From the NCBI RefSeq assembly GCF_037335815.1, contig NZ_CP147841.1:1234591-1298590 (forward strand): a DNA stretch of 64,000 bases. The letters are read 5' to 3'. Under the pieces are notes generated by a model. The model had not been told where the DNA came from. It saw only the letters and a list, made by a program, of their open reading frames with translations, and did not search any database. Of the stretch, positions 4,130 through 26,487 are shown piece after piece. The translations under genes were made by a program, and so were the position numbers. Origin of the DNA: Salinirubellus litoreus. GTDB taxonomy: Archaea > Halobacteriota > Halobacteria > Halobacteriales > Haloarculaceae. The stretch's first letter is position 1, and every line of letters starts with the position of its first letter.

Positions 4130-5170
4130 CTACTCCGCGCCGGCCTCCCGGTAGCAGTCGAGCCACCGCTCGGCGATCGCCCCCCGATCGAACGCCTCGA
4201 AGGAGTCGTCGAACGTCCACTCCGGATAGTCGCCCGCGTCGACGATGGCGTCCTCGATCTCCTCGGGCGTCGTCGCACGGAACCCCCGCTCGCGCCGCTC
4301 GACGAGTTCGTGGGCCGCCGAGTCCTCCTGGTACTCGACGATACCCACGCAGCCGCAGGCCATCGCCCACAGCAGCTCCGTCGCGAACGGCTCCCACGTC
4401 GCGGTGTGGACGAAGACGTGAGCGGCCCGGTAGCGCGCGATGCGTTCCTCCCGCGAGAGGTCGCCGACGAACGTCACGCGGTCGTCGATACGGAGGTCCG
4501 CGACCTGCGCCTCGTAGGCCTCGCGCTCGGGACCGTCGCCGATCACCGTCGCCGTCCAGTCCCGACCCCGGAGTTCGGCGAGCGCCAGAAATAGCGATCC
4601 GAGGTTGGCCGACCCGTCGAGGTGTCGTCCGGCGACGATGTCGGTCCCGCCGGCCGGCTCGGTCGAGTGGATCAGCGAGGTGTCGAGCATCTCCGGGACC
4701 ACCCGGGTTCGCTCCTCGCCCGCGCCGAATTCGCGCACCCACGTCTCGACCAGCCGCGAGGGGGCGACGACCCGGTCGCCGGCCCGGGCAGCCCGTCGGA
4801 TCAGTCGGCCGGTCGGATCGTCGCCGTACCAGTCGACGATCAGGGGGGCCCGTGCCAGCCGTGCGCCCGCCCTGGCGGCGAGGACGGCCGCCGGCGGGGC
4901 CGGCCGCGCGTGGACGACGTCGGGACGGTCGACGGCGAGCAGCCCCGCGATCCGCGAGACGAACGAGACGTCCGCCGGCGAGACCGTGACCGCCCGGTAG
5001 CGGACGCCCTCGCGCTCGCGGTACTCGTCGTAGCCATCCCACCACCCCGTACAGTAGACGGTGACCTCGTGGCCCCGTTCGGCGAGCTCGCGGGCCACCC
5101 GCTCGGTCCGGGCGACGCCGTCCCGGTCGACGTACCGGCCAGTCCGCGAGGCGACGACGACGACCTGCAT
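4130..5170 (-). CDS. glycosyltransferase family 4 (GT-B, RfaB-like)
   Basis: 346-aa ORF with two Rossmann-like halves, C-terminal EPFATELLWAMACGCVGIV motif typical of GT4 (E-x7-E region). Confidence 0.75.
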   Translation of the reverse strand: MQVVVVASRTGRYVDRDGVARTERVARELAERGHEVTVYCTGWWDGYDEYREREGVRYRAVTVSPADVSFVSRIAGLLAVDRPDVVHARPAPPAAVLAARAGARLARAPLIVDWYGDDPTGRLIRRAARAGDRVVAPSRLVETWVREFGAGEERTRVVPEMLDTSLIHSTEPAGGTDIVAGRHLDGSANLGSLFLALAELRGRDWTATVIGDGPEREAYEAQVADLRIDDRVTFVGDLSREERIARYRAAHVFVHTATWEPFATELLWAMACGCVGIVEYQEDSAAHELVERRERGFRATTPEEIEDAIVDAGDYPEWTFDDSFEAFDRGAIAERWLDCYREAGAE

Positions 5171-5775: not shown

Positions 5776-6630
5776 TCAGAGTACCCCTCGCCCGCCGGCG
5801 ATCCCGAAGGTCGCCCGCGCCTCGAACGGTCGGTCCTCGCCGCTCGCCGGTCCGAACTCGCAGACCGCGTTCGCCGACCGGACGTCGCGGGCGATCCCCT
5901 GCCACGCGACGCCGAACCGACCGTCCCCTCCCGTTCGCCCCCCGTCGTCGGGAGCGATACCGCCACCGTGGAGCGGCGTCCGACCGGAGGGCCCGCGCTC
6001 GCCCAGCGAGACCGGGACGGGACCCTCGCGGAACGCACCCCGGGGCGCGTAGCCGTCGAGGGTCCATCCACGACCGGCCGCCGCGCCCACCGAGACCCGG
6101 GTCACGCTCGCCCGCCCGAGGCCCCCGTCCGGCTGGTCGGCCCGCGCTCCGGCCCAGAGCCACACCCGGTAGGCGTGCTCGTCGCCGTCGAGGCGGTAGA
6201 CGACCACGGCGACGTCGGCGCTCACCCACGACTCGGGAACTCCGCTCCCGTCGTCGCCGGGCACCGAGATCGAGTCGCGGTACGCCCCCACGTAGGTCGG
6301 TCCGTCGACTCCCGGTTCCTCGCTCTGCCCCCAGACGCCGTGCTCGCCGTAGGTCCCCGCGAGCGAGGCCACCTCCGGTCCGAACCCGTCCTCGAACGCG
6401 AGCCGCTCGGTCGTGAGGGCGACGTCGGCGTTCGACTCCCCCGAGGAGCCGAGCGCGGAGAGACAGCCGGACGTGGCGGAGAGCCCGCCACCAGCGAGAG
6501 CAAGCAGGGCACGGCGCGAGCACGCCGACGGCGACGACGTGGTGCGGGGGTCGGGCGGCGAGTCCGATCTGACACGAGGACCGGACGCGTCGGAGGGGCT
6601 GGAGGGCTGGCGCGACACGTCAGCGATCAC
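5776..6630 (-). CDS. Tat-signal lipoprotein, Gly-rich hypothetical secreted protein
   Basis: SRRALLALAGGGLSATSGC twin-arginine motif followed by lipobox-like cysteine; opposite/overlapping frames are R-rich junk; true start (GTG/ATG) within first 40 codons uncertain. Confidence 0.5.
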   Translation of the reverse strand: MIADVSRQPSSPSDASGPRVRSDSPPDPRTTSSPSACSRRALLALAGGGLSATSGCLSALGSSGESNADVALTTERLAFEDGFGPEVASLAGTYGEHGVWGQSEEPGVDGPTYVGAYRDSISVPGDDGSGVPESWVSADVAVVVYRLDGDEHAYRVWLWAGARADQPDGGLGRASVTRVSVGAAAGRGWTLDGYAPRGAFREGPVPVSLGERGPSGRTPLHGGGIAPDDGGRTGGDGRFGVAWQGIARDVRSANAVCEFGPASGEDRPFEARATFGIAGGRGVL

Positions 6631-10773: not shown

Positions 10774-11463
10774 CTACGGATCGTCCCCCGAGAGCGGGGT
10801 TCCGTCGGGCCGTTTCGCCCCCTCCGAATCGTGGACCACGACGCCCTCGACGCCCGCCGGCTCGTAGTTCTCGCGGAGCGCGATGGCCTCCTCGACGTCG
10901 CGGACGGCCCGCTCCTTCAGCGCCCGGGCGAGATCCTCGGCGTCCTCGCGGGAGATGTCGCGTCCGAGCCCCTCGCACTCGTGGGCGCGTACAGGACCCT
11001 CGCGGTCGACGGCTTCGCCCATCGGCTGGCTCGCGGTCGCCAGGTCGACGCTGAACGGGTAGGTCCGACAGACCAGCGGCCGGGCGTCGTGGACGGTACA
11101 CGCGCCGGTTCCCTCGTCCTCCGTGTAGAACGTACAGTCCCCGCAGGCATCGGTCTGGAGCGCCCACTCCAGGGTCTCGCCCTCGGGGCCGTCGGCCCCT
11201 TCGTGGAGGCCGTAGGGCATCGGGCGGGCGACGTCCCGCCAGTCGTACTCGTGTTCGAACTCGGGGCTCTCGGCGGTGGCCCGCTGGAGGTTTCGTACTT
11301 CCTCGGGAAACACGGTCGCGGTGTGTTCGTCCCCAGCGTGGCCCTTGCAGCACGCCCCACAGCGCGTACACTCGAACCCGATGGTCTCGATGGCATCCGC
11401 GAGTTCCGAGACGTCGAGGTCCCGCGCCCGTTCGAGTTCGGCTTCGAGGCTCTGACCCGACAC
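10774..11463 (-). CDS. YkgJ-family (UPF0153) cysteine-cluster zinc/iron-chelating domain protein
   Basis: CTRCGACC plus further Cys clusters (CGDC, C..C); GTG start at 11461-11463. Confidence 0.65.
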   Translation of the reverse strand: MSGQSLEAELERARDLDVSELADAIETIGFECTRCGACCKGHAGDEHTATVFPEEVRNLQRATAESPEFEHEYDWRDVARPMPYGLHEGADGPEGETLEWALQTDACGDCTFYTEDEGTGACTVHDARPLVCRTYPFSVDLATASQPMGEAVDREGPVRAHECEGLGRDISREDAEDLARALKERAVRDVEEAIALRENYEPAGVEGVVVHDSEGAKRPDGTPLSGDDP

Positions 11464-11527
11464 ACCCTCGTTTCGGGTCGAACGCGAAAAGAGGTGTCGG
11501 GTGGCGAGTGGACGTGGAGTGTCGGGT

Positions 11528-11913
11528 GGGACTGAAAGGGGCCGGCGGTTCGGGGAAGGCGGGCGACGTAAGCACCGAAGCGGAGTGAGCGAAGCGAACG
11601 GAGCGAGGAGCGCAGCGAGCTCTGCTCGCGGGCCGAAGGCCCGCTCGCATGGTCCGCGGCGGCTTCGCCGCCGCGCTACCCCCGACCCGAACCGTCGGGG
11701 GCTTTCGGGGTGTTCTCATCGTTGGCAGCGGGGGAGACCACGACCACCTCGAAAGCCCCCGGTGGCTGGACTCGCGCGGAACACTCTGCGCTCCTCGGCC
11801 TTCGGCCTGCGGTGCTTGAGGCTCCGTGCTTCGTCCAGTCAGCGCGAGGCCGGCGGAGCCGGCCTCGAATGGTCGCGGCGGCGAAGCCGCCGCGCACGGC
11901 CCCTTTCAGTCCC
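11528..11913. repeat. 386-bp palindromic (head-to-head dimer) intergenic repeat element, family shared with 21010-21293 and 25537-25712
   Basis: Left terminus GGGACTGAAAGGGGCC (11528-11543) and inverted copy GGCCCCTTTCAGTCCC (11898-11913); inner CGGGGGCTTTCGGGGTG (11696-11712) and CACCTCGAAAGCCCCCG (11745-11761); internal hairpins CGGCGGC-TTC-GCCGCCG, GAGGCCGGC-TCC-GCCGGCCTC. Confidence 0.7.
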
Positions 11914-11963
11914 TCCCGACATCGGAGGCTATCGAACGCCGTCGCTGACCGAGACGACACGCC

Positions 11964-11991: not shown

Positions 11992-13572
11992 CTAGTTCGA
12001 CGCGATGACGTCGTCGATGCGGGCGATCATGGTGGCGGCCTCGGTGGCGCTCTCGATGGCCTCGCGCTTGACCGCCGCGGGGTCGAGGACGCCGTGCTCG
12101 ACGGGGTCGCCGATCTCGCCGGTCTGGCCGTGCGAGATGATGCCGGCGATGCCCTCGTTATCGTGGCGCGAGCGCAGGTCGACCAGCGCGTCGATGGGGT
12201 CCATACCCGTGTTCTCGGCGAGCGTGCGCGGGATGATGTCGATGGCGTCGGCGAACGCCTCGACGGCGAGCTGCTTGCGGCCCTCGATGCCGGCCGAGCC
12301 CTGACGGATGTGGTCCGCGATGGCGATCTCCGTCCCGCCGGCCCCGGGGACGACGCCGCCCTTGTCGAGCGCGGCGGTGACGACGTCGAGCGCGTCGTTG
12401 AGCGCGCGCTCGAGCTCGTCGGCGACGTGTTCGGTGCCGCCGCGGGCGAACACCGTCACCGATTCGGCGGCCGCGCCGCCCTCGACGAACGCGAGTTCGT
12501 CGTCGCCGAACTTCTCGACGCGGATGTGGTCGGCCCGGCCGAGGTCGTCGGATTCGAGGTCGTCGACGGAGCCGATGGTCTTCGCGCCGGTGGCCTTCGC
12601 GATGGACTTCGCATCGGAGTCACCGACCGACTCGAACGCGAGGATGTCCTGCTTGGCGAGGTAGGAGGCGACGCGGTCCTCGATGTCACCGGTGACGAAC
12701 GCGACGTCGACGCCCGCGTCGGCGACCTTCTCGGCGTAGCTCCGGAGCTCACCCTCCTCGGCCTCGATGGCGGCCTCGAGCTGGTCGACGCTCGTGATGT
12801 CGTACTCGGCGTCGATGTTGGATTCGCGAATTTCGAGGTCGAGGTCGAGCACCGCGACGGTGGCGTCCTCCACCGAGCGGGGCATGTCGTCGTGGACGGG
12901 CTCCTCGTCGACGATGACCCCCTGGACGAGTTCGGTCGCCGAGGACGAGGCCCCGGTCTGGGTCCGGACGGTGATGCTGTCGCGGTCGACGCCACTGTCG
13001 GTTCGGACCTGCTGGACGGCGGCGACGATGGTTTCCGCGAGCGCGTCGGCCTCGATGTCGCCCGTGCCCTTGCCGGTCATCGAGGACTCGGCGACGGACT
13101 CGAGGAGGTCGTCGTCGAGCTCCTCGTCGAGGGTGACGTCCTCGATGGCCTCCAGCGCGAGCTGTGCGGCCTCGTTGTACCCCTCGACGATGGTCGTCGG
13201 GTGGACGTCGTCCTCGAGGAGGTCCTCGGCCTGGACGAGGAGCTGACCCGCCAGCACCGACGCCGTGGTCGTCCCGTCGCCGACCTCCTCCTCCTGGGAG
13301 TCGGCGACCTCGACGATCATCTGGGCGGCGGGGTGCTCGATGTCCATCTTGTTGAGGATGGTCGCGCCGTCGTTCGTGATGACGACGTCGCCCGAGTCCG
13401 AGACGAGCATCTTGTCCATCCCTCGGGGGCCGAGCGTGGTCCGTACGGCCTCACTGACGGCTTTCCCGGCCTGGATGTTCGAGGACTGTGCGTCCTGCCC
13501 GCGTGTCCGCTGGGTGTCCTCCGCGAGGATGAACATCGGCTGACCGCCCATGCGCTGACGCTGTTGTGCCAT
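11992..13572 (-). CDS. ths: thermosome subunit (group II chaperonin, CCT/TCP-1 family)
   Basis: 526 aa; N-terminal ...[42 protein letters not shown]-binding motif, full equatorial/apical domains. Confidence 0.95.
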
Positions 13573-20933: not shown

Positions 20934-21009
20934 TCATACTCCCGAGTCCGCGCCCGTTCGGCAAAACCCCATCGGGGTTCCGCAACCGGTGTGGGGTGGC
21001 CCATCGGGT

Positions 21010-21293
21010 GGGACTGAAAGGGGCCGCGCGTGGCGGCTCCGCCGTGGTACGAGAGACGCGAAGCGTCTCTCGTCACTGAGCGAATCGGAGATTCGCGAGG
21101 TCTGCGAACGCGGCGCGTTCGCCCGATCACGAAACGGCTCCGCCGTTTCGAACGACCGCGACCGTTCGAGGCCGGCGTTGCCGGTCTCGCGCTGGCTCCG
21201 GTCGCGCGGCTCGCGGCGCTCCTCGCCTTCCTGCGGTCGGCTGCGGTGCTTACGTCGCCGTGCTTCCCGGAGCCAGCGGGGGCTTTCGAGGTG
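21010..21293. repeat. 284-bp monomer copy of the palindromic intergenic repeat family (see 11528-11913, 25537-25712)
   Basis: termini GGGACTGAAAGGGGCC (21010-21025) and CGGGGGCTTTCGAGGTG (21277-21293); interior collinear with reverse complement of right arm of element at 11.7 kb (ACCGTTCGAGGCCGGCGTTGCCGGTCTCGCGCTG, GCGGTGCTT) with a ~100-bp insertion. Confidence 0.7.
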
Positions 21294-21417
21294 CTCCTGT
21301 CTGAAGTGAGATTGCTGGAAACACCTCGGGAGTCCCCGACGCGACCTACTGTGGGCTCGGACGTTCGAACCCCCCACGAGGGCCAGAGCTAAGTTCCCAC
21401 GCGAATTGATAGCGCGT

Positions 21418-24230: not shown

Positions 24231-24305
24231 CGAGCACGGTGGGATTCGAACCCACGGCCATCGGATTAGAAGTCCGACGCTCTGTCCTAGCTGAGCTACG
24301 TGCCC
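24231..24305 (-). tRNA. tRNA-Arg (anticodon UCU)
   Basis: reverse complement GGGCACGTAGCTCAGCTAGGACAGAGCGTCGGACTTCTAATCCGATGGCCGTGGGTTCGAATCCCACCGTGCTCG folds as cloverleaf: 7-bp acceptor stem, D-loop AGCTAGG, anticodon loop CU-UCU-AA, T-loop GTTCGAATC; no encoded CCA. Confidence 0.9.
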
Positions 24306-24452: not shown

Positions 24453-25502
24453 GTGCAGACCACCCACGAGGTCCACGTCGGGGACGCCCGCGATCTCTCA
24501 CTCCCCGACGACTCGATCGAACTCGTCGTCACCTCGCCGCCGTACCCGATGATCGAGATGTGGGACGCGTCGTTCGCGGCGCAGGACTCCCGGATCCGCG
24601 ACGCGCTCTCGGCGGAGGAGGGCGACCGGGCGTTCGACCTGATGCACGACCTGCTCGACGACGCGTGGGCCGAGGTCGCCCGTGTGCTCGTCCCCGGCGG
24701 AATCGCGGTCGTGAACGTGGGTGATGCGACCCGGACGGTCGGTGACACCTTCTCCCAGTACCCGAACCACGTCGAGATTACCCGGAGACTCCGCGGACAC
24801 GGGCTCTCGGCGCTCCCCGATATCGTCTGGCGCAAGCCGACGAACTCGGCGGCGAAGTTCATGGGCAGCGGGATGCTCCCGCCGAACGCCTACCCGACCC
24901 TCGAACACGAGCATCTCCTGGTGTTCCGGAACGGCGACACCCGCTCGTTCCCGCCCGGCGACGACGCCCGGTACGGGTCGGCCTACTTCTGGGAGGAGCG
25001 AAACGAGTGGTTCTCGGACCTCTGGGAGATCACCGGGACGCGCCAGTCCCTCCCCGGCGAGGTCCGGGCACGCTCGGGGGCGTTCCCGCTCGACCTCCCG
25101 CTGCGGCTGGTGCTGATGTTCTCCGTCTACGGCGACACCGTACTCGACCCCTTCTGGGGGACCGGGACGACCTCGATGGCGGCGCTCGTCGCCGGACGGA
25201 ACTCCGCGGGCGTCGAGCGCGAACCCGATCTGGTGGGGGCGTTCGCCGAGCGGGTCGGCGAGGCTCCCCGCATCTCGGAGGCGTTGGCGACCGAGCGACT
25301 GGATCGCCACCGGGAGTTCGTGACCGAGCGGCGGTCGGACGGTGGGGAGCCGGGATACGAGGCCGAACACTACGACTTTCCGGTGGTCACGAAACAGGAG
25401 CGGTCGATCCAGCTTCGGGTCGTCGAGTCGGTCGGGCGAGAGAACACCGATGGCGAGGAGGACGCGACGAACCGATGGGTGGCCCAGCACGTGACGATGT
25501 AG
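24453..25502 (+). CDS. beta-class DNA methyltransferase (N4-cytosine/N6-adenine type; probable orphan, Zim/CTAG-MTase-like)
   Basis: motif IV TSPPYP near N-terminus followed by motif I DPFWGTGTT near residue 230 (circular permutation class beta); no adjacent restriction endonuclease; GTG start. Confidence 0.8.
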   Translation: MQTTHEVHVGDARDLSLPDDSIELVVTSPPYPMIEMWDASFAAQDSRIRDALSAEEGDRAFDLMHDLLDDAWAEVARVLVPGGIAVVNVGDATRTVGDTFSQYPNHVEITRRLRGHGLSALPDIVWRKPTNSAAKFMGSGMLPPNAYPTLEHEHLLVFRNGDTRSFPPGDDARYGSAYFWEERNEWFSDLWEITGTRQSLPGEVRARSGAFPLDLPLRLVLMFSVYGDTVLDPFWGTGTTSMAALVAGRNSAGVEREPDLVGAFAERVGEAPRISEALATERLDRHREFVTERRSDGGEPGYEAEHYDFPVVTKQERSIQLRVVESVGRENTDGEEDATNRWVAQHVTM

Positions 25503-25536
25503 GGGCCAGTGCGTGCTACTTCGGATACGTCTGCAA

Positions 25537-25712
25537 CACCTCGAAAGCCCCGAGTCGCTAGGGGAAGGCGGACGACGCGGGGACCGCAGGCCGAAGGCAG
25601 AGGAGCGCAACGACCCGGAAGCCGAGCGAGACGGCTTTGCCGTCTCGCTGGCCGTGCGAACGGGCGGCTTTGCCGCCCGTGAGCAGACGTAGCCGTCGGG
25701 GGCTTTCGAGGT
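25537..25712. repeat. 176-bp compact copy of the palindromic intergenic repeat family with perfect 16-17-bp terminal inverted repeats
   Basis: CACCTCGAAAGCCCCG (25537-25552) ... CGGGGGCTTTCGAGGTG (25696-25712); interior GGGGAAGGCGGACGACG, CCGAAGGC, GAGGAGCGCA, hairpin CGGGCGG-CTTTG-CCGCCCG homologous to left arm of 11.5-kb element. Confidence 0.7.
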
Positions 25713-25809
25713 GTTCCCAACTGCTGTCGCGGCTCACGACTCGTAGGCGATGCACCACCCTCACGAAACCCCACGCGCTTTAGTCGGGACCTCACGAAAC
25801 CCACCGTAC

Positions 25810-26487
25810 ATGGACCTCTCGTTCGACGAGTTCGTCCTCGCGGCGGCCACCGCCGACCTCTCCGAGGAGCCGGCGGCCCGCGAGCACGCCGACTGCGTCG
25901 AGTTCCGGATGGACCTCGCCGGAGGTGACCCGCTCGATGCTCTCTCGGGATACGACGGGGAGCTCCCGCTGCTCGTCACCGATCGCCCGGAGTGGGAGGG
26001 TGGCGAGGCGGCCGACGAGGGCCGGATCGAGGACCTCGTCGCGGCGGTCGAGCACGAGGCCGTCGCGGCGGTCGACGTCGAACTCCACGAGGTGGCCGGC
26101 GGGGACGGCCTCGACGTCGTGGAGGCCGCCCGGGAGTCGGGGACGAAAGTGGTCGTCTCGGTCCACGACTTCGAGGGGACGCCGCCACGGAGCGAGCTCC
26201 GGCGGCTCGTCGAGCGGGCGAGCGAGTACGGCGACGTCGCGAAGCTCGCGGTCACGGCCGAGAGCCCCGACGACACGCTCGCGCTGCTGGCGGTGACGCG
26301 GGCGCACGCCTCCGCGGGGCGAACGCTGGCGACGATGGCGATGGGCGAGGCCGGTCGGCACACGCGCGTCGTCGCGCCGCTGTACGGTTCCCGGATCGGC
26401 TACGCGCCGGTCGACCCGTCGCGGGCGACCGCGCCCGGCCAGTACGAGCTCGGGACGCTCTCGCGGCTGGTCGACGAACTCCGCTGA
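25810..26487 (+). CDS. aroD: 3-dehydroquinate dehydratase type I
   Basis: ATG verified at 25810; 225 aa; conserved catalytic Lys/His context (VEFRMD, VSVHDFEGTP, AKLAVTA) typical of AroD. Confidence 0.85.
   Translation: MDLSFDEFVLAAATADLSEEPAAREHADCVEFRMDLAGGDPLDALSGYDGELPLLVTDRPEWEGGEAADEGRIEDLVAAVEHEAVAAVDVELHEVAGGDGLDVVEAARESGTKVVVSVHDFEGTPPRSELRRLVERASEYGDVAKLAVTAESPDDTLALLAVTRAHASAGRTLATMAMGEAGRHTRVVAPLYGSRIGYAPVDPSRATAPGQYELGTLSRLVDELR

What the first reader, a model, noticed from the sequence alone, without database searches (positions are those of the whole stretch)
11528..11913. 386-bp palindromic dimer member of a previously unrecognised, hairpin-rich intergenic repeat family between ykgJ-like gene and thermosome
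The 528-bp gap between two minus-strand genes is filled by a near-palindrome. Its outer termini are GGGACTGAAAGGGGCC and GGCCCCTTTCAGTCCC. Its inner termini are CGGGGGCTTTCGGGGTG and CACCTCGAAAGCCCCCG, around a ~30-bp centre. Each arm matches the monomeric copies at 21010-21293 and 25537-25712. Each arm also carries perfect local hairpins (CGGCGGC-TTC-GCCGCCG; GAGGCCGGC-TCC-GCCGGCCTC; GGCC-GAA-GGCC). This is structure the gene annotation does not explain. It could be a MITE-like mobile element, a cruciform-forming DNA element, or a family of structured small RNAs.
Basis: seen in the sequence. Interest (0 to 1): 0.7.

Follow-up and report, generated by a model that had tools for sequence, protein, structure and literature searches.

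The report
Haloarchaeal hairpin repeat module, convergent pair
The 386-bp "palindrome" is two head-to-head copies of a ~115-nt hairpin-forming DNA repeat found in gene-free spacers across salt-loving archaea; it looks like undescribed selfish DNA that in some genomes travels inside small IS6-type transposons.

Summary
Window 11522-11921 holds two convergent copies of one hairpin module. As single-stranded DNA the region folds at -154.5 kcal/mol, z = -9.8 against shuffles.

The module runs 5'-GGGACTGAAAGGGGCCG ... CGGGGGCTTTCGAGGTGTT-3', with the core GACGYAAGCACCGCAG ... GAGGAGCGCAGCGAG. It is not local.

Its rod-like fold is strongly supported. 95% of pair cells are paired, against 75% in shuffles, and 21 of 27 pairs show compensatory changes. 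Pairing is strand-specific: G.U 124 against A.C 22.

Copies sit in promoter-containing spacers, often about 100 nt upstream of a start codon. They turn over fast. At orthologous loci in 93-96% relatives the flanks are 82-91% identical, but the interiors are no more alike than shuffled sequence. Whole hairpins collapse to 26-nt or shorter stubs.

In Haloplanus and several MAGs the modules lie inside 200-330-bp MITEs with 8-9-bp target duplications. Those MITE inverted repeats equal the ends of an annotated IS6-family IS. The window copies have no such ends.

There is no Rfam match, and no paper in the held library contains the motif strings.

Best reading: a selfish, REPIN/BIME-like palindromic repeat. 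A cis-regulatory RNA or DNA role is not excluded.

The parts
11522..11714 (+). Left module (forward orientation). 5' motif GGGACTGAAAGGGGCCG at 11528-11544, core about 11563-11623, 3' motif CGGGGGCTTTCGGGGTG at 11696-11712.
   Evidence: Covariance model R1 full-length hit, 69.8 bits, E = 9e-13. Fold.
11628..11675 (+). Two extra perfect hairpins inserted into the left module: GCGGGCC-GAA-GGCCCGC (11628-11644) and CGCGGCGGC-TTC-GCCGCCGCG (11655-11675).
   Evidence: They are absent from the minimal units at the orthologous locus in L125 and L126.
11713..11744 (.). 32-nt spacer between the two facing 3' motifs.
   Evidence: The equivalent spacer is present in L126.
11745..11921 (-). Right module (reverse orientation). 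3' motif read as CACCTCGAAAGCCCCCG at 11745-11761, apical hairpin 11797-11807, 5' motif read as CGGCCCCTTTCAGTCCC at 11897-11913.
   Evidence: R1 hit at 11759-11844 on the minus strand, 52.5 bits. Motif matches. Fold.
11845..11894 (-). Two extra perfect hairpins in the right module: 11845-11867 and 11874-11894. The same pair, nearly identical, occurs in a unit of an unrelated MAG (L113, about 4995-5045).
11494..11529 (+). Two direct copies of GTGTCGGGTGG that lead into the 5' motif. The orthologous loci carry 2-5 CCGACAC-type repeats at the same place.
   Evidence: family D3.
21004..21300 (+). Second locus: a long module with 5' and 3' motifs in forward orientation, several extra hairpins, and the inner core inverted (21190-21277 matches the model on the minus strand).
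21316..21335 (-). Stub of a collapsed reverse module (GAAACACCTCGGGAGTCCCC). The relative L144 has the 26-nt-type short form at the same position.
25535..25717 (+). Third locus: a variant module whose 5' end is the reverse complement of the 3' motif, giving a perfect closing helix. It has a forward core and two extra hairpins, and lies 101 nt upstream of the ATG at 25810 of a DHquinase_I gene.

Best explanation
The region is a convergent pair of two members of a Halobacteria-wide family of non-coding palindromic repeat modules.

Structure of a module. Each module is a ~90-125-nt imperfect hairpin.
- A GAAAG/CTTTC closing helix.
- A conserved GGG/GGG internal loop.
- A 10-14-bp stem of free sequence.
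- A conserved core.
- An apical GNA-triloop hairpin.

Most likely mechanism. I think it is selfish DNA that is propagated and reshaped at the DNA level.
- Shown: the hairpin is constrained on one strand.
- Inferred: the constraint arises because new copies must fold as single-stranded nucleic acid to be copied or moved, as REP/REPIN elements do.
- Shown: in some lineages the modules are passengers of IS6-type MITEs that transpose with 8-9-bp duplications.
- Shown: after arrival, copies gain extra perfect hairpins, invert their core, have their interior replaced, or collapse to a 26-nt stub.

The window pair is a lineage-specific insertion, shared with relatives whose thermosome is at least 93% identical. 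Each arm has since grown by two extra hairpins.

The enzyme that propagates 'naked' modules is not identified. Any effect on the neighbouring promoters would be secondary.
For: Family and distribution.
- A consensus BLAST found 107 plasmid records, all haloarchaeal: ten genera are named in the output and '24 more' are counted. 51 of the records cover at least 80% of the unit.
- 72 units are 93-129 nt long.

Structure.
- RNAalifold predicts 27 pairs, 18 with compensatory changes.
- On 122 model-aligned units, 95.2% of cells are paired against 75.5% in shuffles (0 of 500 shuffles reach it).
- There are 511 double-change cells against 154 in shuffles. Slid controls give 38-50% paired.

Strand specificity.
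- G.U/U.G 124 against A.C/C.A 22.
- Apical loops are C-GNA-G 14 against C-TNC-G 1. The extra hairpins are 11 against 11.

Mobility.
- Haloplanus sp. C73 has a 324-bp composite element at 97.8% identity at unrelated loci.
- Target duplications are TCGCTTGGG, CGAGACGG and ATTCTGAC(G).
- The same inverted repeat GGTAGTGTTCAGATAAG ends a 698-bp IS with a DDE_Tnp_IS240 transposase and the 8-bp duplication GGTAAACC.

Turnover.
- At the thermosome locus the flanks are 82-91% identical to L125 and L126. Collinear homology stops at the end of one 5' motif and resumes at the other.
- Interiors are 50-53% identical, the same as shuffled sequence.
- One unit is collapsed in L125.
- The same 26-nt short form occurs in four different genomes.
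- The second window locus shows truncation and collapse in relatives.

No conserved host locus and no linked gene.
- Genera with 81-83% identical thermosomes lack both the synteny and the element.
- No recurrent neighbouring gene family was found.
- No conserved upstream TATA was found.
Against: - The window copies have no terminal inverted repeat of the IS6 type and no target duplication. How naked modules spread is therefore inferred, not shown.
- Near-invariant, non-complementary end motifs and core across at least four haloarchaeal families are unusual for MITE interiors. They point to binding by a conserved factor.
- Position and orientation are not random. Units are depleted in convergent spacers (3 observed, 10 expected, p = 0.024).
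- Single units in co-directional spacers point with the genes 19:5 (p = 0.007).
- 41% of units end 85-125 nt before the downstream start codon. Selection or target preference could explain this, but so could a promoter-linked function.
- Copy density varies widely. There are 3 loci in this 64-kb window but only 1 in a 196-kb Halobaculum plasmid.
Confidence: 0.55

Rival explanations
1. A cis-acting structured RNA module. The forward strand is transcribed towards the downstream gene, as an upstream or 5'-leader RNA. The rod-like hairpin binds a conserved protein through the GGG/GGG loop and the tandem G.A and GNA apical motif, and so alters expression or stability of the neighbouring mRNA. Under this reading MITEs merely distribute it.
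For: - Compensatory covariation is strong.
- There is a 5.6-fold excess of G.U over A.C on the strand that points at the downstream gene.
- Units share the orientation of the downstream gene, and the spacing peaks near 100 nt.
- Loop and core sequences are conserved across families of Halobacteria.
Against: - No conserved promoter or AT-rich box lies upstream of the 5' motif.
- Divergent pairs leave only about 33 GC-rich nt between the two 5' ends.
- There is no Rfam hit even at E = 10.
- Copies at orthologous loci are truncated, collapsed or replaced within a genus-level clade.
- Downstream genes are functionally unrelated.
- The core can be inverted relative to the ends (L035).
- The held part of the Haloferax volcanii TSS table shows no TSS with these motifs in its 70-nt upstream sequence. 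This is weak evidence, because the file was cut and Haloferax volcanii has few copies.
Confidence: 0.22
2. A DNA-level architectural or regulatory site. The double-stranded motifs, or an extruded cruciform, bind a host protein such as a nucleoid protein, an Orc1/Cdc6 paralogue or a regulator. They act just upstream of core promoters, for example as an insulator or a sink for supercoils.
For: - Units are enriched in promoter-containing spacers and depleted in convergent ones.
- MITE ends sit 10-30 nt upstream of TATA-like boxes in recent insertions.
- ssDNA stability is extreme.
- GCGNAGC-type loops are, from my own knowledge, unusually stable DNA mini-hairpins (loop counts).
Against: - The G.T against A.C asymmetry argues for one folded strand, not a symmetric cruciform.
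- Units decay quickly at orthologous loci.
- No binding protein is known. The resemblance of ACTGAAAGGGG to origin-recognition boxes is only a recollection and was not tested.
Confidence: 0.13
3. A hairpin cassette with its own site-specific insertion mechanism. The ~90-nt inner hairpin inserts into and excises from a 26-nt palindromic docking site, GGGACTGAAAGGGGCCGR-NNG-CTTTC, without target duplication. This would resemble the enigmatic 'small mobile repeats' of Haloquadratum that target palindromes in other elements.
For: - The same 26-nt short form recurs in four genomes, one of them inside an otherwise complete MITE.
- Homology at orthologous loci breaks exactly at the motif boundaries, and the interiors are unrelated.
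- Interiors are occasionally inverted.
- The Haloquadratum SMRs are described as ~110 bp, with inverted ends and no duplication. They insert in palindromes, and the same site can be hit in either orientation.
Against: - The termini of the putative cassette (stem 1) are its most variable part, which is the opposite of a transposase-recognised end.
- Only about 3% of interiors are inverted.
- Deletion of a hairpin by replication slippage explains the short forms equally well. L125 shows a deletion with 2-nt microhomology.
- No near-identical filled and empty pair was found.
Confidence: 0.1

Closest known systems
REP / BIME / REPIN elements of bacteria (mobilised by RAYT Y1 transposases)
   Same: - Extragenic, non-coding imperfect palindromes.
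- They occur singly and as inverted pairs in both arrangements.
- The stem is kept by compensatory change.
- The structure is strand-specific.
- They persist across a large clade.
   Different: - The unit is 3-4 times longer than a REP.
- There is no GTAG or CGTC tag.
- Units lie upstream of genes, not at 3' ends.
- The family is archaeal.
- No RAYT-like gene has been linked to it.
IS6-family derived MITEs (terminal repeats GGTAGTGTTCAGATAAG, 8-bp duplication)
   Same: In Haloplanus sp. C73 and the QS/QH MAGs the modules lie between exactly these repeats, with 8-9-bp duplications. An IS with the same ends and a DDE_Tnp_IS240 transposase exists in Halorubrum and Halolamina plasmids.
   Different: The window copies, and roughly 80% of sampled copies, lack a recognisable form of these repeats. 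The conserved part of the family is the interior hairpin, not the ends. That is the reverse of ordinary MITE families.
Haloquadratum walsbyi small mobile repeats (SMR; HqIRS42/43/55), PMC3119063
   Same: - About 110 bp, with prominent inverted ends.
- No target duplication and no known transposase.
- Nested in other mobile elements at palindromes.
- The same site can be occupied in either orientation.
   Different: No sequences were available to compare, and Haloquadratum did not appear among the hits. Those families are species-specific and more than 95% homogeneous, whereas this family is class-wide and diverse.
Correia elements (CREE) of Neisseria and similar structured MITEs (ERIC, RUP, BOX)
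   Same: Short intergenic repeats that form long hairpins, sit next to promoters, and can alter neighbouring gene expression.
   Different: Those have defined inverted ends and a TA duplication on every copy. They are genus-specific and show no comparable covariation or modular gain of hairpins.

Membership tests
MITE (window element itself) | Terminal inverted repeats that match a transposase-encoding IS | tested here: not met
   The outer 25-nt inverted repeat is simply the 5' motif of two opposed modules. The IS6-type repeat CTGAACACTACC is absent near all three window loci: 3 weak matches elsewhere against 1.8 expected.
MITE (window element itself) | Target-site duplication flanking the element | tested here: not met
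   The flanks GACGTGGAG (left of 11520) and TCGGAGGCT (right of 11921) are not direct repeats.
MITE (relatives carrying the same module) | Inverted ends, target duplication, several near-identical copies, and a partner IS | tested here: met
   324 bp at 97.8% identity at unrelated loci. 8-9-bp duplications. A 698-bp IS6-family IS with the same ends and an 8-bp duplication.
REP/REPIN-RAYT | Conserved GTAG or CGTC tetranucleotide at the foot of a 20-40-nt palindrome | tested here: not met
   The consensus 5' end is CGGGYGGGACTGAAAG and units are 93-129 nt long.
REP/REPIN-RAYT | Inverted doublets that fold as one hairpin, with the stem kept by compensatory change | tested here: met
   Convergent and divergent pairs are common. 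Covariation.
REP/REPIN-RAYT | A single-copy Y1 (RAYT) transposase gene flanked by the repeats | not tested
   No recurrent neighbouring gene appeared in about 70 sampled loci. A single-copy gene would be missed by this sample, so whole genomes are needed.
IS200/IS605-type PATE or TnpB omega-RNA | Sequence continuity with the ends of tnpA/tnpB elements, or adjacency to tnpB | tested here: not met
   No tnpB or tnpA lies next to any sampled unit. The tnpB in L144 (19162-20439) has no model hit nearby.
Rfam RNA families | A score at or above a family's gathering threshold | tested here: not met
   At the gathering threshold only a tRNA was found in the window. At E up to 10 there were only chance-level hits of 10-16 bits.
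Integron attC sites | RYYYAAC / GTTRRRY core sites and arrays of gene cassettes | tested here: not met
   The ends are GGGACTGAAAG / CTTTCGAGG. Units are dispersed next to housekeeping genes and are not in arrays.
Haloquadratum SMR | Sequence similarity to HqIRS42/43/55 | not testable with these tools
   The paper and its supplements give sizes and counts but no sequences.

The most novel reading that the evidence does not exclude
The module is not just junk DNA. It would be a class-wide, strand-specifically folded element with a conserved protein partner, spread by MITEs to sites about 100 nt upstream of start codons, where it modulates promoters. Alternatively, it propagates by an undescribed hairpin-cassette mechanism that docks into a 26-nt palindromic site without target duplication.
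Probability: 0.2. Interest if true: 0.8.

Novelty: new variant of a known kind. Interest (0 to 1): 0.58.

Why it matters
Bacterial REP, BIME and REPIN elements have been studied for forty years. No archaeal counterpart of comparable breadth came to light in the searches made here.

This family has four properties that make it a tractable system.
- It is present in most haloarchaeal genera sampled, including the model Haloferax volcanii (pHV4).
- It has a fold backed by hundreds of compensatory changes.
- It is strand-specific.
- It visibly gains, flips and loses hairpins between close relatives.

It could be used to study how palindromic DNA arises and is tolerated in polyploid, GC-rich archaea. 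It could also show whether such repeats rewire promoters.

Practically, these units fill otherwise unexplained long intergenic regions. They will confound sRNA prediction, assembly and synteny analyses in haloarchaea.

Tried and rejected
- Rfam at the gathering threshold and at E up to 10: nothing.
- Literature search for four unit motif strings and four inverted-repeat strings: no relevant paper.
- Link to a specific neighbouring gene (riboswitch or leader idea): rejected. Neighbours fall into no recurrent family.
- tnpB/omega-RNA or PATE idea: no adjacency.
- Own promoter upstream of the 5' motif: no AT-rich peak.
- Virus association: the 5 exact 17-mer hits in IMG/VR carry no full unit.
- Conservation of the thermosome-locus element in other genera: synteny is absent.
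- Transcript evidence from the Haloferax volcanii TSS table: the stored file is cut, covers only part of the chromosome, and gave no hit.
- Sequence comparison with the Haloquadratum SMRs: no sequences are held.
- IS110-like ISHvo9 next to the pHV4 unit: about 390 bp away and on the other strand. The orthologous region in another plasmid (L060) shows the unit's near flank is the same. I treated this as coincidence.
- An early guess that the window comes from Halobaculum, based on the best plasmid hits, was wrong. The closest named thermosome match (96%) is from a Haloarculaceae MAG.

Full report
**1. What is in the window**

The 528-bp spacer lies between the CxxCxxCC/YkgJ-family gene (10774-11463, minus strand) and the thermosome gene (11992-13572, minus strand).
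- Outer inverted repeat: 11520-11544 with 11897-11921, 25 nt, 96% complementary.
- Inner motifs: 11696-11712 and 11745-11761, 32 nt apart.
- Five perfect short hairpins.

As single-stranded DNA the region folds at -154.5 kcal/mol. Shuffles give -109.0 +/- 4.6, so z = -9.8.

The two arms are only 65% identical to each other, against 58 +/- 2% for shuffles. The region is therefore two different members of one family placed tail to tail, not a duplicated palindrome.

**2. The unit**

Related sequences from haloarchaeal plasmids showed a minimal unit of about 115 nt:

5'-(C)GGGY GGGACTGAAAGGGGCCG [stem 1] .. [stem 2] GACGYAAGCACCGCAG [apical hairpin] GAGGAGCGCAGCGAG [stem 2'] [stem 1'] CGGGGGCTTTC nnGnTGTT-3'

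115 of them are Halobacteria, and the other 5 are bacterial loci without a unit.
- Of 129 motif matches, 105 are followed by the 3' motif. 72 units are 93-129 nt long, and the rest reach 335 nt because of inserted hairpins.
- A consensus query found 107 plasmid records, all haloarchaeal: ten genera are named in the output and '24 more' are counted. 51 records cover at least 80% of the unit.
- Those records include Haloferax volcanii pHV4, Haloferax mediterranei, Halobacterium, Natrinema and Haloarcula. The pHV4 copy scores 99.2 bits with my model.
- In the window, the model finds the left arm full-length (69.8 bits) and the inner part of the right arm. It also finds the core of the 21-kb copy on the opposite strand, so that core is inverted within its own ends.

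**3. Structure**

Single sequences fold as a rod.
- On 65 minimal units, RNAalifold gives 27 pairs, 18 of them with compensatory changes.
- On 122 model-aligned units, 95.2% of cells pair against 75.5% in shuffles (0 of 500 shuffles reach it).
- 21 of 27 pairs have double changes. There are 511 double-change cells against 154 in shuffles.
- Sliding the partners by 1-3 columns drops pairing to 38-50%. That alignment was fitted to the model, which favours it. The independent MAFFT alignment tells the same story.
- Conserved unpaired features are the 3x3 GGG/GGG loop next to the GAAAG/CTTTC helix, an A.A mismatch and an AA/GCA loop in the core. The apical motif is of the type C-GA-NC-GNA-GN-GA-G.
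- Pairing is strand-specific. G.U/U.G occur 124 times against 22 for A.C/C.A, or 86 against 22 without the dominant pair.
- Apical triloops are C-GNA-G 14 times and C-TNC-G once on the forward strand. The accessory hairpins show no preference, 11 against 11.

One strand, read 5'-GGGACUGAAAG, is therefore the one that folds, as RNA or as ssDNA.

**4. Genomic context**

I used a simple GC3-based gene finder, which reproduces the genes in the window and agrees with the annotation at 3 of 4 plasmid loci.
- Spacers holding units are divergent 26, co-directional 31 and convergent 3. Expected values are 19.4, 30.3 and 10.3 (p = 0.024).
- Single units in co-directional spacers point with the genes 19:5 (p = 0.007).
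- 41% of units end 85-125 nt before the downstream start codon.
- The window copy at 25.5 kb ends 101 nt before the ATG of a DHquinase_I gene.
- Neighbouring genes are unrelated to one another.
- There is no AT-rich peak upstream of the 5' motif. The downstream 100 nt are AT-richer, as expected for the neighbour's own promoter.

**5. Mobility and the IS6 link**

- About 20% of units have CTGAACACTACC 27-44 nt after the 3' motif. The background rate is 0.007 per 150 nt.
- In one subfamily the reverse complement sits about 40 nt before the 5' motif, so these are terminal inverted repeats.
- In Haloplanus sp. C73 a composite of two divergent units between such repeats occurs at five loci. Two copies are 97.8% identical over 324 bp.
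- Those copies carry 8-9-bp target duplications.
- The repeat GGTAGTGTTCAGATAAG also ends a 698-bp IS on Halorubrum pHrrPV6 and on a Halolamina plasmid. That IS has the 8-bp duplication GGTAAACC and a DDE_Tnp_IS240 (IS6-family) transposase.
- The modules therefore travel inside IS6-type MITEs in some lineages. The window has no such repeats.

**6. Turnover**

The window organism is an uncultured member of Haloarculaceae: its thermosome is 96% identical to that of a Haloarculaceae MAG.

*Thermosome locus.*
- In relatives with 96% (L125) and 93% (L126) identical thermosomes, the same spacer holds the same convergent arrangement.
- The flanks are 82-91% identical. Collinear homology stops at the end of one 5' motif and resumes at the other.
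- The interiors are 50-53% identical, equal to shuffled sequence.
- L126 has two minimal units without the extra hairpins.
- L125 has one unit, and the other is collapsed to ACATCTCGAAAG|TCCCACCC.

*Second locus.*
- L144 has a 5'-truncated unit plus a short form.
- The window has a long unit with an inverted core plus a 20-nt stub.
- L145 has only debris.

*Other observations.*
- Four genomes carry the same 26-nt short form, GGGACTGAAAGGGGCCGR-NNG-CTTTC, one of them inside a complete MITE.
- MITE copies that are otherwise about 97% identical differ by perfect triloop hairpins inserted at different points. The window's accessory hairpin pair recurs almost unchanged in an unrelated MAG.
- More distant genera lack the locus arrangement altogether.

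**7. Interpretation**

A functional RNA gene at a fixed locus would not be truncated, collapsed and replaced within a genus-level clade, and it would have a promoter. A plain MITE would not keep a covarying, strand-specific hairpin with invariant non-complementary motifs across a whole class.

The reading that fits both facts is a selfish palindromic module whose constraints act when new copies are made, as in REPINs. The IS6-type MITEs are one vehicle among possibly several. Decay and remodelling follow after insertion. I give this 0.55.

The bias in position and orientation, together with the conserved loops, keeps a cis-regulatory RNA role (0.22) and a DNA-level promoter role (0.13) alive. 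The recurrent short form and the exact homology breaks keep a site-specific hairpin-cassette mechanism possible (0.10).

**8. Comparison and novelty**

- Rfam has nothing.
- No paper in the held library contains the motifs.
- The closest described classes are bacterial REP/BIME/REPIN elements, structured MITEs such as Correia elements, and the unexplained small mobile repeats of Haloquadratum.
- A large MITE census noted that Haloarculaceae and Halovenus MAGs carry the most archaeal MITEs. These look like the same kind of hypersaline MAGs as those sampled here, though I did not confirm that they are the same assemblies. The census did not describe this family.
- I rate it a new variant of a known kind: real, widespread and well structured, but most likely selfish DNA.

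Noticed in passing
L001 about 1740-1850; L002 about 1400-1490; also L007, L012, L016, L028, L029, L033, L035, L045, L047, L061, L069, L088, L110, L118: A second conserved module..GAGCGAATCGGCTGGGGAGGCGTGTGG.., lies 25-30 nt upstream of the 5' motif in about 16 loci from several genera. It is absent from the window (0 matches).
   Followed up: partly
L069, L110, L118, L016, L047, L117, L064, L028 (downstream of units): Tandem arrays of about 50-nt half units, each ending in GGGGCGGGGGCTTTCTGGG. The 3' motif is repeated without the rest of the hairpin.
   Followed up: no
L063 against L099/L112; L101 and L078 (alignment A3): MITE copies that are otherwise about 97% identical differ by perfect 9-11-bp hairpins with 3-nt loops, inserted at different internal positions. 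The hairpin sequences are unrelated to each other, which suggests that palindromes are generated de novo, for example by snap-back synthesis.
   Followed up: partly
L017, L033, L044, L061, L094, L116: A subfamily has the same 5' and 3' motifs and outer stem but an unrelated interior..GTCGTCTGAGCGACCCCTATC..GATATGTCGCTCAGCGAC...
   Followed up: no
L148 615-1613 (Haloferax volcanii pHV4, NC_013966.1): An IS110-like ISHvo9 transposase gene lies about 390 bp from the pHV4 unit. From my own knowledge, IS110-family elements in bacteria often target REP-like palindromes. It was not resolved here whether this one does.
   Followed up: partly
window 24231-24305 (minus strand) and 24453-25502 (plus strand): A tRNA gene (71.5 bits) lies next to an N6_N4 DNA methylase gene, just upstream of the third repeat locus. 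This could be the edge of an integrated element.
   Followed up: no
L126 about 5930-6010; window 11494-11529: CCGACAC / GTGTCGGGTGG short repeats vary in number (2 to about 5) between relatives, next to the 5' motif of the unit that faces the ykgJ-like gene.
   Followed up: no
L144 19162-20439: A TnpB-like gene (Cas12f1-like_TNB) lies in the closest relative's contig, about 7.6 kb downstream of the thermosome gene. No repeat unit is associated with it.
   Followed up: partly
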